From assembly GCA_030295235.1 (NCBI GenBank), contig AP026167.1, forward strand, positions 248,001 through 312,000: a stretch of 64,000 nt of DNA, in the 5' to 3' direction. Made by a program: the position numbers and the translations under genes. The notes beneath the pieces are model-generated. The model saw only the letters and a program-made list of their open reading frames with translations. It was not told the origin of the DNA and searched no databases. This DNA comes from Fistulifera solaris. Taxonomy: Eukaryota. Shown here in pieces: positions 42,951 through 47,395 of the stretch (position 1 is the first letter of the stretch; every line of letters starts with the position of its first letter).

Positions 42951-44132
42951 TTATTTCGTGTTGGAGTTCTTGCGGAGTAAACCAAAGAATTGTTTGTTGC
43001 TGTAGGATTTTTGCAGCTTCTTGGTATCCACCCAAAACTCCATTTTCCTGGTCATAGGATTCCATGTTTGTCCCTGTTCCTTGTTAAAGCGTGTCACATT
43101 CGAGAGAAACTGCTTCGAATTGACTTCATGATCGCTTTGTTGAATATTCGCCAAGAACTCTTTGCCGAACAACATTCCGACCACTATCGACGCCTCTTCC
43201 TTGTCGAGGCTGCGTTGACCTAACATACTCAATAAATGATGCCCTATCCCCATTTCTCGACAGCGATGTAACGTGAGACCGTAGGTTAACCAAGGATTGT
43301 GTTTGTGTATCTTTTTGGCCTCTGAAAAGTATTCACCGACGATTTCCAGAGGCTCCTTTAATCGTCGACTCAATTCCGTATAGTGATGATACACTTTCGA
43401 GTCATCGACGCATAAACGCACAATGAGCCGAACGGGAAGTGATTGCAATACGCGCAAATCGTCCGCCAGTGTCCTATCTTCGGGCAATCCGGCTACCGCC
43501 AAAACCACAATTGCCTGTTGTTTTTGGGCCCGCAATTCGGATTCGATGGTGCGTATTCGTTCGTAAATTTCTCGCAAGTGCTCCGATAGCTCGTTGGCAC
43601 CCCGGGGTTCACAATCTCGCACAATCGAAAGAGCGGCATCGACTTCGGATTGTTGACGGTACCGTCCGACGCAAAATTCCCGCGCACACGCCTGGGGCGG
43701 AAAATTGATGAACCGAAAGATCGTGGGTGTTTCGTTGAGTCCCGCTAATTGGATGTGAAAGTCCATGGTTTCTTGCAATTCGATCCATCGCGAGCACGCG
43801 ATCACTTGGTGATGCAGTTCACTGCCCAAGATGCGTTTCCCGTCCATGACGCGCATGTGCCCGCCATTGTCAATGAGCCAAAACCGGATGGGATAATACG
43901 GATTGCTGTGTGGTATCACGGAGGCGACACCTTTCGAGAAGCCTTGATTGATTAATGCTGCGATGATGGATTGTTCTTTCCATGGTTCATGAGCGATGGC
44001 TAAACCGGAGGACGCGGAGGAGACCGTTTCGCCCATTGACGCGTCTCGACTCTGTTGATCATTATTGTTTTGTTCCCCAGATGACTGGCGTTGATATTTA
44101 TTCATGTTGGATGTTATTGTTGTTGCATTCAT
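42951..44132 (-). CDS. vWA-domain paralog with degenerate MIDAS, convergent with the 41571 gene
   Basis: Colinear with the 41571 protein (QGFSKG, WLIDNGGHM, SRWIE, VRLCVDD, WLTYGLTLHRCRE, WNP...E.W.D.K.L). Confidence 0.78.
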   Translation of the reverse strand: MNATTITSNMNKYQRQSSGEQNNNDQQSRDASMGETVSSASSGLAIAHEPWKEQSIIAALINQGFSKGVASVIPHSNPYYPIRFWLIDNGGHMRVMDGKRILGSELHHQVIACSRWIELQETMDFHIQLAGLNETPTIFRFINFPPQACAREFCVGRYRQQSEVDAALSIVRDCEPRGANELSEHLREIYERIRTIESELRAQKQQAIVVLAVAGLPEDRTLADDLRVLQSLPVRLIVRLCVDDSKVYHHYTELSRRLKEPLEIVGEYFSEAKKIHKHNPWLTYGLTLHRCREMGIGHHLLSMLGQRSLDKEEASIVVGMLFGKEFLANIQQSDHEVNSKQFLSNVTRFNKEQGQTWNPMTRKMEFWVDTKKLQKSYSNKQFFGLLRKNSNTK

Positions 44133-45345
44133 GGTGACATTTGCAGAAAATAAGGGAGACAGCATCATCATCATATCGCAGTCGTGAGGTCTTCCCAACG
44201 ATACCTGGTAGGTTTTCACAACACGCCGCACGCAACTCGCAGCCAATTCCTTGAAATCTATTATATGTACAACAAAAATGATAGTGGCGTAGGACGTCTT
44301 TAGAGTTTATTTTTTATCGATGGTTGGACTTCGCTGTTCGCATTTCGCATGCCTGAGGCCTGAGCGTCGAGCTCGAAACTGCACGAAGCACGAACATCAT
44401 CATCATCTACCTACTACCACCACTCTTTGTCATAAAGAACTAGTGATTAAGAGTGCCCAGCCACACTAGAAAACAGAAAGTGTGAATGAAATAAGGCATA
44501 AGACGCGCATTCGTCGCTTCTTCTCTTCGCATTCGTCATTCCGCCTACAATATACTGCAGACTGCAGACGGTCCTGGGTCCTGGGTACTCATTTGCCCTC
44601 ATGAACAATCCAGAATACAGACTTCAGCAATAAAACAATCTGTGGCTTCATCCGGGCGCGCATGAGTCTTTCCCTGGTCAGGTCAGTTAGTATGCTTCTG
44701 CGAAATCCAAGAGAAGGAATGCCAAAACGGAATCCCCCTCATTGGGAAACGGGCTCGGGACTGGCCCTCTACTAGCGCACTAAGGCTAGGGAGTTAGAAC
44801 CAAAGCTTACTCATTGAAGTGTCAGACTGAAATATATGTGAATGAAAAGTGGAAAATTCAGTCGAATGTCAAGATTAGATTCTGACGATTAAAAATTAGG
44901 AATAAAATATATATGTGGAAAAAAAAAATTAATAAAAAAGAAATACGTACAAACGAGGCAAAGTTGGTAAGCCAAATTTTGTATCGAGAGGAAAACTTCA
45001 ATATTGCCGTCTGCCGTCTGTCAGAAAGAGAAGAACTGGGGTACCGGATTCTCTTGGAAACTGTATTTTTAATTCGGACTCATAGGAACAGGGCTAATAC
45101 GTAGTACGGAGTACACTCGAATATGACTGGCTTTTTGCAATCGTTATCCTTAATCCAACTTCCAAACAACCTTGAACCTTCCTGTACAACCCTTGGTACC
45201 AGTAATAAACCGTTAACTGTTGCCATTCATTTCTCAGCATCATTCATCACGGTAATGAACAAAGAAGGGCTAAACGAACATTCTTACAACAACAGAGCCA
45301 ACTGAAAGGGAGTAGTAGTTCAGTTACCCACAAAAATACAGCGCC

Positions 45346-46509
45346 ATGTCGGATGAAGCGGAAAAGCGATCCCTGGAGAGTGAAGCCAGCATTCCCATTA
45401 AGAAACGAGCGCGACTGACTCATTCCACATCATCCCAAAGGCACGCTCATTTTGATTGCTTCAGTGGAGCCGCTGGTGATATGCTGCTAGCATCATGTCT
45501 CGATGCATCTGAAGATCCTGGGCATTTAGCGGAACGAGTCGTCCATGCGATCAAGTTAGGCCTGCCCGAGCTGGCGGAGGAATTTCACCTTTCTTACGAG
45601 AAAGCATGGAGGGGAGCCGGGAGTATCTATGCCATGACAGTGAAAATCGAGAGTGTTTATAAGCATCAAGCTGTCCCGGTTCCTTCTAAAAATTTTGCGA
45701 ATGATCGAGAAGCATGCATATCCGATGCAGTAGTTGGAATTGATGACGAGATAACACACAATCATTCGCATTCTCCTGGTCACTCGCACAGACATAGTCA
45801 GGATCATCCTCATGATCATTCACTCGAACATAACCATGGGCACTCTCATGGTCATTCTCATGTGAATGATACATCACTGATCCAGTCGGAGGCGCTCGAT
45901 AAAGGCGTTTCTCGTTCAGAACACGACCATCATCAATCATTACAAACGACTGGACCCCTGCGAAACCTACCGGAGATCAGGAGAATGCTAGAAAATGCTC
46001 CAGAAGAGCATATTCCTTTGTGGGTCAAAAATACTGCCATCGAGGCCTTCGTGGAATTAGCAAAAGCCGAAGCCTCCGTGCATGGGGCCAGTGGCATTGA
46101 TACTGTACACTTTCATGAAGTCGGTGCCGTTGATTCCATTGTCGATACTGTGGGTACACTTCTTGCTTTGCATTTTCTCGGCGCCAAAACATTTTCGATG
46201 AGTCCTTTGCCTATGGGAGAAGGTGCCGTGCGGACCGCCCATGGCATCCTCCCCGTACCAGCTCCCGCGACATTGCATCTGATGGTAGGCATGCGCACGG
46301 CACCAGGGCCGCCGGGAGTCACAGGAGAACTAGTTACACCCACCGCAGCGGCAATTTTGCGAGTATTGACCAACAACACGACGGGTGTTGCCACAGACCG
46401 GCCGCCACGATTTACGTTACGGCGAATTGGACTTGGTGCTGGAACGAAAGACTTTCGGGGACATCCCAACATAATGCGTTTATTTCTTGGTGATGACGTT
46501 CTTTCCTAA
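45346..46509 (+). CDS. larC: LarC-like nickel-insertion protein (N-terminal LarC1 region) with a His-rich tract
   Basis: HFDCFSGAAGDML, His-rich tract, RNLPEI, LAKAEASVHG, VHFHEVGAVDSIVD, TAHGILPVPAPAT, GELVTPT, GLGAGTKDF..PNIMR. Confidence 0.9.
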   Translation: MSDEAEKRSLESEASIPIKKRARLTHSTSSQRHAHFDCFSGAAGDMLLASCLDASEDPGHLAERVVHAIKLGLPELAEEFHLSYEKAWRGAGSIYAMTVKIESVYKHQAVPVPSKNFANDREACISDAVVGIDDEITHNHSHSPGHSHRHSQDHPHDHSLEHNHGHSHGHSHVNDTSLIQSEALDKGVSRSEHDHHQSLQTTGPLRNLPEIRRMLENAPEEHIPLWVKNTAIEAFVELAKAEASVHGASGIDTVHFHEVGAVDSIVDTVGTLLALHFLGAKTFSMSPLPMGEGAVRTAHGILPVPAPATLHLMVGMRTAPGPPGVTGELVTPTAAAILRVLTNNTTGVATDRPPRFTLRRIGLGAGTKDFRGHPNIMRLFLGDDVLS

Positions 46510-46756: not shown

Positions 46757-47395
46757 ATGCTGTTCAACAAAACCAAAACTTCAGCTTTCATCATACTCCT
46801 CGCCATGCTAGGCACAGCCGAGGGCCGCGGCCACGGTCGCCACAGTGCGTTGCTGGCTCCCCGTCGTTACCAGTACAATCGTTCACTGGATCCGATTGAT
46901 ATGATTGGCGAGATCTTTACTGCGCCTATTTACATGAACAGTTTGCTGGGTCGTAGTGAACCGAATCTGTTGAAAGTGTCTACTCCGAACAGTCCTTCCT
47001 ATGATGTCTCGGTAGACACCGAAAACGGACTCGTGGAGTTGACGGTGGAGTTACCGGGTGTGCGATCGGAGGATCTAGACATAGAACTGGTGGATACAAG
47101 CTTGCTTCGCATCAGAGCTTCTCGAAAAGTGAAACACAACGGTTCTTTTGTCCAACAAGAGTTTGATCAGAGCTTCCAGCTCGACAGAGATGTTGATCCG
47201 GACCACATCAATGCGTCCCTTACCAATGGTGTCTTGACAGTTCAAGCCAAACGAAAAGAGAAATCGGTCAAGAAAATCTCCGTTCTTTTAGACGAAGCCC
47301 CAATAAAAAACGCAGTGGCGAAGTCGAACGAAATTGCGGAGGAGACGTTGAATGAGCAAGACCCCGACGATATTACCGTTGTTGATAGCGACTAG
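46757..47395 (+). CDS. Small heat-shock protein (HSP20/alpha-crystallin) with a signal peptide
   Basis: VELPGV..EDLDIEL, FDQSFQL..DVD...I.ASLTNGVLTV. N-terminal hydrophobic FIILLAMLGTAEG. Confidence 0.88.
   Translation: MLFNKTKTSAFIILLAMLGTAEGRGHGRHSALLAPRRYQYNRSLDPIDMIGEIFTAPIYMNSLLGRSEPNLLKVSTPNSPSYDVSVDTENGLVELTVELPGVRSEDLDIELVDTSLLRIRASRKVKHNGSFVQQEFDQSFQLDRDVDPDHINASLTNGVLTVQAKRKEKSVKKISVLLDEAPIKNAVAKSNEIAEETLNEQDPDDITVVDSD

What the first reader, a model, noticed from the sequence alone, without database searches (positions are those of the whole stretch)
45346..46509. Eukaryotic, intronless LarC half-protein with a large His tract and an NLS-like N-terminus: possible nickel-pincer or Ni-handling system in a diatom
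Seen: the LarC1 motifs, a tract HNHSHSPGHSHRHSQDHPHDHSLEHNHGHSHGHSH, and an N-terminal PIKKRARL. The ORF stops just after PNIMRLFLG, and I see no LarC2-like sequence before the next gene. No larA, larB or larE lies in the window. Established: LarC inserts Ni into the nickel-pincer nucleotide cofactor in prokaryotes; its C-terminal domain binds CTP; and in Lactobacillus plantarum larC1 and larC2 are joined by frameshifting. Inference: this alga either has a split LarC with the other lar genes elsewhere, which would mean a little-studied eukaryotic NPN pathway, or has repurposed LarC1 as a Ni store or chaperone (for urease, for example), possibly nuclear.
Basis: partly seen in the sequence, partly recalled or inferred. 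Interest (0 to 1): 0.75.

Follow-up and report, generated by a model that had tools for sequence, protein, structure and literature searches.

The report
Diatom nickel-inserting enzyme split in two
This diatom has every gene needed to build the nickel-pincer cofactor, but its nickel-inserting enzyme is divided between two unlinked genes, one keeping the nickel chemistry and the other keeping the CTP step behind a folded but catalytically dead copy of the first, which gives a natural test of how this enzyme hands over its intermediate.

Summary
The ORF is real: 387 aa, a complete LarC1 domain with every residue shown essential in Moorella LarC, and no LarC2 anywhere on its contig. The genome holds larB, larE and a hexonate-epimerase-type larA, all unlinked. 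Its only LarC2 lies in a second gene (C2/C1) fused to a degenerate LarC1 domain. That domain keeps the fold, is under purifying selection (dN/dS 0.25), and has lost the His tract and catalytic residues. The same pair occurs in three other named pennate diatoms; named centric diatoms, brown algae, Nannochloropsis and an oomycete have the usual fused LarC. Trees place both forms among diatom LarCs. So LarC was duplicated and each copy lost the complementary half. The His tract is ordinary for LarC, and the NLS-like motif is not conserved (11 of 103). Eukaryotic LarA enzymes and split prokaryotic larC genes are known. The diatom pathway and the pseudo-domain partner were not found in eight literature searches or in the scan's earlier notes.

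The parts
45346..46509 (+). larC-alpha: intronless ORF, 387 aa, LarC1 (nickel-insertion) domain only
   Evidence: AlphaFold model mean pLDDT 79.6 with disordered 130-195
45394..45417 (+). PIKKRARL, NLS-like basic cluster in the low-confidence N-tail; not conserved across the family
   Evidence: K[KR]x[KR] in 11 of 103 LarC1-only N-termini
45448..45483 (+). HFDCFSGAAGDM motif; D45 = Moorella D15 (acidic pocket)
45757..45861 (+). His tract, residues 138-172, 15 His in 35 residues, inside a low-confidence insert; ordinary for LarC
45961..46146 (+). Catalytic core: R206, E242, H246 and HFHEVGAVDSIVD (255-267) = Moorella R71, E104, H108, H116, H118, E119, D124, D128
   Evidence: alignment to PDB 12bi, mutagenesis in PMC13510736, conservation
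46240..46479 (+). H299, P305, E328, H373, R378 = Moorella H160, P166, E187, H226, R231
46507..46509 (+). Stop codon 9 residues after PNIMR, where the interdomain linker would begin
   Evidence: stop at the same place in the C17 copy
46757..47395 (+). Downstream Hsp20 gene; a separate gene, shows that no LarC2 exon follows
   Evidence: PF00011 E 6.7e-15; contigs with poly-A ends in runs X2 and X4

Best explanation
The gene encodes the nickel-insertion half (alpha) of a two-gene LarC in a complete diatom nickel-pincer nucleotide (NPN) pathway. LarB and a CXXC-C type LarE make P2TMN. The unlinked paralog beta (dead LarC1 fold + intact LarC2; G000 C2:207561 and C1) attaches CMP using CTP. Alpha binds nickel with its His cluster and tract and inserts it in its acidic pocket. 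The cofactor serves a LarA of the hexonate-epimerase group. The two genes arose by duplication of a fused diatom larC, after which each copy lost the complementary function. SHOWN: gene content, domain architecture, residue retention and loss, fold of the dead domain (predicted), purifying selection, distribution. INFERRED: enzyme activities (from homology). INFERRED and least certain (about 0.5): beta's dead LarC1 domain is a docking adaptor that takes alpha into mixed LarC1 trimers on the LarC2 hexamer, replacing the covalent linker.
For: Alpha keeps all ten residues whose loss cut activity strongly in Moorella LarC; nine are invariant in 119 of 119 LarC1-only proteins and D15 is in 109 of 119. 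Beta is the only LarC2 in the genome (3 of 3 candidates, two loci), passes NF052512 (120 bits, cut-off 50) and fits 6bwq at rmsd 1.9. Beta's N-half aligns to alpha along the whole LarC1 domain (hhalign probability 100, E 1.6e-46, 12% identity), models at pLDDT 91.8 with the same order of helices and strands, and has dN/dS 0.25 (95% 0.16-0.40) between the two haplotypes. In 104 beta proteins R71 is kept in 0, H118 in 2, H160 in 1, D124 in 3, D128 in 4, and none has a His tract, while LarC2 invariants are kept in 103-104. larB 209 bits (cut-off 175), larE 177 (150), larA NF052594 549 (500). Both alpha and beta are named from Epithemia clementina, Cylindrotheca closterium and C. fusiformis. Fused LarC is named from Attheya, Chaetoceros, Thalassiosira, Skeletonema, Cyclotella, Ectocarpus, Scytosiphon, Choristocarpus, Tribonema, Nannochloropsis and Aphanomyces. 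Beta's LarC2 groups with diatom fused LarC at 98% SH-aLRT; the 15 least-decayed beta LarC1 domains form one long-branched clade (97%) among diatom sequences.
Against: No activity or expression of alpha is shown. In Moorella LarC, changing the linker cut activity below 10%, so a non-covalent arrangement needs another solution. Residues named as conserved at the LarC1-LarC1 interface are mostly lost in beta: H108 in 17 of 104, P166 in 29, R231 in 41, none in this genome's beta, on an uncertain alignment. The LarC2 tree does not recover beta as one clade (5 changes, weak support), so a single duplication is not shown. Both larB copies have a frame break at the same A-run in this assembly; I read it as a long-read homopolymer error but did not verify it.
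Confidence: 0.8

Rival explanations
1. Same pathway, but alpha and beta never bind: the CMP-linked intermediate diffuses from beta to alpha, and beta's dead domain only stabilises beta or keeps the interdomain cleft. This is a variant within the 0.8 above.
For: Interface residues are largely lost in beta. In 4 of 4 prokaryotic genomes tested, a LarC1-only gene is partnered by a LarC2 with no LarC1-like domain, in two cases on another contig, so a dead domain is not required everywhere.
Against: All 104 beta proteins of 390 residues or more keep an N-terminal region, and it is under purifying selection here. The intermediate is thought to pass through a LarC1-LarC2 cleft and the linker matters in Moorella LarC.
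Confidence: 0.3
2. Alpha has been repurposed as a nickel store or chaperone (for urease or NiSOD), possibly nuclear, and NPN synthesis is not its main job.
For: His tract in 117 of 119 alpha proteins; PIKKRARL is kept in both haplotypes with N-tail dN/dS 0.17 over 29 codons; the one UreG reading frame inspected shows no His-rich N-terminus, though an upstream exon was not excluded.
Against: The substrate pocket and proposed nucleophile E104 are invariant, core dN/dS is 0.08, alpha is the genome's only intact LarC1, and the rest of the pathway is present. His tracts are common in fused LarC. A side role in Ni buffering is not excluded.
Confidence: 0.08
3. Alpha and beta serve different ends: beta is a CTP-dependent enzyme for another pathway, as earlier notes suggest for some archaeal LarC copies lacking nickel residues, and alpha acts on another substrate.
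For: The genes are unlinked.
Against: No fused LarC remains in this genome, so NPN synthesis has no other source of either half. The two losses are exactly complementary.
Confidence: 0.08
4. Artefact: a fused larC cut short by an unspliced intron, an assembly break or bacterial contamination.
For: Intron-truncated LarC1-only models do exist in Thalassiosirales-like sequences, where a GT-AG intron lies in the linker. This assembly has several 1-base indels in lar genes.
Against: No LarC2 on C18 or C17; both haplotypes stop at the same place; run X1 covers all 30 bins of the stretch laid with no joint at the gene's 3' end (it may be the assembly's own sample); GC is like the rest of the window; the nearest relatives are diatom proteins; larB has a GT-AG intron.
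Confidence: 0.02

Closest known systems
LarC of Moorella thermoacetica (PDB 12bi-12bl; PMC13510736)
   Same: LarC1 domain with the same His cluster and acidic pocket residues; LarC2 domain present in the cell.
   Different: One fused chain with an essential 13-residue linker and six active LarC1 domains. Here the active LarC1 has no LarC2, and the LarC2 chain carries a dead LarC1.
larC1/larC2 of Lactiplantibacillus plantarum and split prokaryotic larC genes
   Same: LarC1 and LarC2 in separate reading frames; His-rich LarC1 (21 His in L. plantarum, PMC13510736). 6 of 80 prokaryotic loci examined have a LarC1-only frame and one more is cut by the locus end.
   Different: L. plantarum joins adjacent frames by frameshifting; the four other prokaryotic genomes tested use a LarC2 without any LarC1-like domain. 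The diatom split came from duplication of a fused gene, and the genes lie on different chromosomes.
Fused LarC of centric diatoms, brown algae, Nannochloropsis and oomycetes
   Same: Nearest relatives; the inferred ancestral state, with the same His tract.
   Different: Single chain with both intact domains.
LarAH15 of Phytophthora nicotianae and GntE2 of Thermotoga maritima (NPN-dependent gluconate 2-epimerases; PMC11770544, PMC7583248)
   Same: The diatom LarA matches GntE2 (4NAR) best, E 1.3e-29, and keeps the equivalents of H154, K164, H180 and the EV/S loop.
   Different: It passes the group-18 model NF052594 (putative hexonate epimerase); its substrate is untested, and it was not compared directly with LarAH15.

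Membership tests
LarC (NPN nickel insertase) | LarC1 domain | tested here: met
   TIGR00299 180 bits over cut-off 90, full profile; PDB 12bi E 2e-36
LarC (NPN nickel insertase) | Essential His and acidic-pocket residues (D15, R71, E104, H108, H118, E119, D124, D128, H160, E187) | tested here: met
   10 of 10 kept in the window protein; H70 and H72 are not kept, H72A is harmless in Moorella, H53 was not mapped
LarC (NPN nickel insertase) | LarC2 CTP-binding domain in the same chain or joined by frameshift | tested here: not met
   No LarC2 in the window or on C18
LarC (NPN nickel insertase) | LarC2 available in the genome | tested here: met
   Beta gene on C2 and C1, NF052512 over cut-off; family-invariant residues kept. 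The published list of CTP-contact residues was not seen.
LarC (NPN nickel insertase) | CTP-dependent Ni insertion into P2TMN | not testable with these tools
   needs biochemistry
NPN pathway (larA, larB, larC, larE) | larB present | tested here: met
   NF033503 209 bits over 175, two copies with an intron; exon 1 has a frame break at an A-run in both assembled copies
NPN pathway (larA, larB, larC, larE) | larE with SGGXDS and a sulfur-transfer motif | tested here: met
   TIGR00268 177 bits over 150; SGGVDS, CFAC and a distal Cys fit the CXXC-C [4Fe-4S] type of PMC9283937
NPN pathway (larA, larB, larC, larE) | An NPN-using enzyme with cofactor-binding Lys and His | tested here: met
   LarA-like on C1 and C2, NF052594 549 bits over 500; residues by alignment to 4NAR
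Enzyme/pseudoenzyme heteromer | Partner keeps the fold but lacks catalytic residues | tested here: met
Enzyme/pseudoenzyme heteromer | Physical binding of the two chains | not tested
Nuclear protein with a monopartite NLS | Basic motif conserved across orthologs | tested here: not met
   11 of 103; localisation itself is not testable here

The most novel reading that the evidence does not exclude
Pennate diatoms run a heteromeric LarC: a LarC2 hexamer whose tethered LarC1 domains are dead adaptors that recruit a free, His-rich catalytic LarC1. The pathway is also split between compartments, with LarB and the Fe-S LarE in mitochondria (both have basic, acid-free N-terminal extensions) and LarC and LarA outside, so P2TMN must be exported. 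This would add a third nickel-enzyme system to diatoms beside urease and NiSOD (those two recalled, not checked here).
Probability: 0.3. Interest if true: 0.78.

Novelty: new variant of a known kind. Interest (0 to 1): 0.62.

Why it matters
The 2026 LarC structure paper leaves open how the CMP-linked intermediate crosses about 25 angstrom steps from LarC2 to LarC1, why the linker is essential, and what the three LarC1 positions do. The diatom pair separates the tethered LarC1 from the catalytic one, so mixing purified alpha and beta tests these questions directly. A complete NPN pathway in a major phytoplankton group also points to an overlooked nickel demand and an unassigned sugar-acid epimerase; a DUF111 gene was a hub of a glucose-responsive module in Nitzschia laevis (PMC8401676; which paralog is not stated).

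Tried and rejected
Complex prediction of alpha with beta was not available, so binding has no verdict. RNA check: no RNA holder is listed; run X1 looks like DNA (flat depth across intergenic DNA, two haplotypes) and the RNA-like contigs of X2-X4 do not cover the gene, which says nothing on expression. Foldseek of the alpha model found nothing at E 0.001; that library lists no full-length LarC structure. The 2018 LarC2 paper is not held. A supplement search of PMC11770544 for diatom and Phytophthora names found nothing in the one file held as text; its figures S1 and 2 may list diatoms and could not be seen. LarC1-only models in Thalassiosirales-like sequences looked like a second split but are explained by a linker intron in the two loci read; two transcript-derived ones (P0459, P0462) stay unexplained. 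Of 80 metagenome loci fetched with the beta alignment, one (L026, diatom-like score and GC) has the beta architecture. The closest prokaryotic LarCs are scattered over many phyla at low identity, so no donor can be named. ESM Atlas hits for beta were bacterial PF01969 clusters of 309-352 aa that could not be inspected; a prokaryotic analogue of beta is therefore not excluded. The careful LarC2 tree did not finish; quick trees were used.

Full report
Observation. The ORF at 45346-46509 (+) is an uninterrupted 387-aa frame with the quoted His tract (residues 138-172), PIKKRARL (17-24) and the end PNIMRLFLGDDVLS. It matches PF01969 over positions 2-234 of 375 and the whole NCBIfam LarC1 model. 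A LarC2 profile finds nothing in the window, and an Hsp20 gene starts 247 bases after the stop. The genome has 51.7 Mb in 62 contigs, with each lar gene found twice on paired contigs. The best named relative is labelled Fistulifera solaris (86%), and its N-terminus equals that of the C17 copy.

The rest of the pathway. Searches of the own genome found larB on C6 and C5, larE on C9 and C10 and a larA-like gene on C1 and C2. The copy of each tested passes its curated cut-off, the LarA as NF052594, a putative hexonate epimerase. Its best solved relative is T. maritima GntE2, with the cofactor Lys and His and the EV loop aligned (numbering from PMC7583248 passages). LarE has the CXXC-C motif of the [4Fe-4S] type. 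larB has a GT-AG intron, which marks it as a nuclear eukaryotic gene. Both larB copies break frame at one A-run; the C1 beta copy and the C17 alpha copy also have 1-base deletions. The database protein for the C17 copy is intact there, so I read these as assembly errors; this is inferred, and unverified for larB.

The partner gene. PF01969 has six matches in the genome, which resolve to two genes in two copies. The second gene (beta, 395 aa) holds the only LarC2; its C-half fits the LarC2 crystal structure at rmsd 1.9. Its N-half is a LarC1 relic. Profile comparison aligns it over the whole domain at probability 100 but 12% identity, and the AlphaFold model (pLDDT 91.8) has the same order of elements as alpha without the His insert. 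I mapped the residues tested in Moorella LarC (PMC13510736, parts 1-3 of 6 read) through the 12bi alignment. Alpha keeps all ten essential ones. Across 119 alpha, 104 beta and 56 fused proteins, nine are invariant in alpha, whereas beta keeps R71 in 0, H118 in 2, H160 in 1, D124 in 3, D128 in 4, E119 in 6, D15 in 6, E187 in 13, H108 in 17 and E104 in 40. The fused set was chosen for having the HFHE motif, so its conservation there is by construction. From the 120 beta-side proteins I dropped 3 N-truncated pieces of fused LarC and 13 under 390 aa before this count. The decay is graded from mild to severe. Between haplotypes dN/dS is 0.25 (0.16-0.40) for the dead domain, 0.18 for LarC2 and 0.08 for the alpha core, so the dead domain is being kept by selection.

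Distribution and origin. Of the best 120 hits to alpha (query included, of 7939), 119 lack LarC2; of 120 beta-side proteins (query included, from the best of 904), 120 have LarC2 and none has HFHEVGAxD. Names are given for only a minority of rows. Both forms are named from Epithemia clementina, Cylindrotheca closterium and C. fusiformis; one form alone appears for Nitzschia inconspicua, Nitzschia sp., Pseudo-nitzschia australis, Mayamaea, Seminavis and Fragilaria. That these are pennates is my own knowledge. Fused LarC is named from Attheya, Chaetoceros, Thalassiosira, Skeletonema, Cyclotella, three brown algal genera, Tribonema, Nannochloropsis and Aphanomyces. In quick trees, beta's LarC2 lies in a 98% clade with diatom fused LarC but is not itself one clade; the 15 least-decayed beta LarC1 domains form a 97% long-branched clade among alpha and centric sequences. 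This fits duplication inside diatoms, near the base of the pennates; the number and order of events were not tested. One caution: in Thalassiosirales-like sequences an intron in the linker yields false LarC1-only models, so some unnamed alpha rows may be of that kind. This cannot apply to the window gene, which has no LarC2 on its contig.

Mechanism. LarB and LarE make P2TMN; beta's LarC2 adds CMP from CTP; alpha binds Ni and inserts it; LarA uses the cofactor. These activities are inferred from homology. In Moorella LarC, LarC1 domains form head-to-tail trimers tethered to a LarC2 hexamer, and the linker is essential. The simplest use for a conserved, folded, dead LarC1 on the LarC2 chain is to recruit alpha into such trimers; I put this at about 0.5. 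Against it, the interface residues named in that paper are mostly lost in beta, and four prokaryotes with a LarC1-only gene manage with a LarC2 that has no such domain.

His tract, NLS and compartments. A window with 10 or more His in 40 residues occurs in 117 of 119 alpha, 36 of 56 fused and 0 of 104 beta proteins and in 33 of 80 prokaryotic loci. It goes with the catalytic domain and is no sign of a new job. The basic motif is in 11 of 103 alpha N-termini, so nuclear location is at most lineage-specific. Both LarB and both LarE copies begin with 25 residues holding 3-5 basic and no acidic residues, unlike alpha, beta and LarA. That pattern resembles mitochondrial presequences (my knowledge; no predictor was run, and only two haplotypes were seen).

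What is known. Eukaryotic LarA homologs are reported, all in the GntE branch, and the Phytophthora enzyme is an NPN-dependent gluconate epimerase (PMC11770544: passages, section 4 and one supplementary file); that paper also notes NPN-biosynthesis genes in some unicellular eukaryotes. Split larC is known from L. plantarum and occurs in 6 of 80 prokaryotic loci here. Databases already label diatom proteins as LarC family. Eight searches found no paper on a diatom NPN pathway or on a LarC pair with a dead domain; the library lacks most subscription papers. Other papers seen: PMC9283937, PMC7583248 and PMC13524815 (passages), PMC8401676 (section 10), PMC7972479 (one irrelevant match). The scan's earlier notes hold no such eukaryotic case.

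Verdict. A real gene and a new variant of a known enzyme: LarC divided between a catalytic LarC1 and a pseudo-LarC1/LarC2 partner within a full diatom NPN pathway. Interest 0.62.

Noticed in passing
L007:1048-2043 and L008 (larB), L014:1474-2478 - and L015 (larE): LarB and LarE start with basic, acid-free extensions like mitochondrial presequences, while both LarC chains and LarA do not; the pathway may span compartments.
   Followed up: partly
L007 and L008, larB exon 1: Both assembled larB copies break frame at the same run of six A; probably a homopolymer error, a real frameshift site is not excluded.
   Followed up: partly
L028:1470-1900, L029:60-480; P0459, P0462: Thalassiosirales-like larC has a GT-AG intron in the interdomain linker; retention would give a LarC1-only protein, and two transcript-derived proteins end there. 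A possible forerunner of the pennate split.
   Followed up: partly
window:44640-44945: A repeat upstream of the gene with summed contig depth 1500-3800 against 11-17 on either side in run X1, with loose ends; looks like a small mobile or repeated element.
   Followed up: no
window:46757-47395 +: Hsp20 with a hydrophobic, signal-peptide-like N-terminus; poly-A-ended contigs in X2 and X4 carry the other haplotype's letters.
   Followed up: no
window:41535-42785 + and 42951-44306 -: Two convergent, similar-looking genes with no Pfam hit at E 0.01; their DNSGSM/DNGGHM motifs recall von Willebrand A domains (recalled, untested).
   Followed up: no
L020 and L021 (larA-like): The LarA has two basic inserts (TKKLKS, KRRR) and lies between a histone H3-like gene and a GTPase-like gene (neighbour names recalled from the sequence).
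   Followed up: no
L188:1255-2106: The UreG reading frame shows no His-rich N-terminus, which I recall for plant and fungal UreG; an upstream exon was not looked for.
   Followed up: no
P0438 (Chaetoceros tenuissimus): This fused LarC has a second His-rich stretch in the interdomain linker.
   Followed up: no
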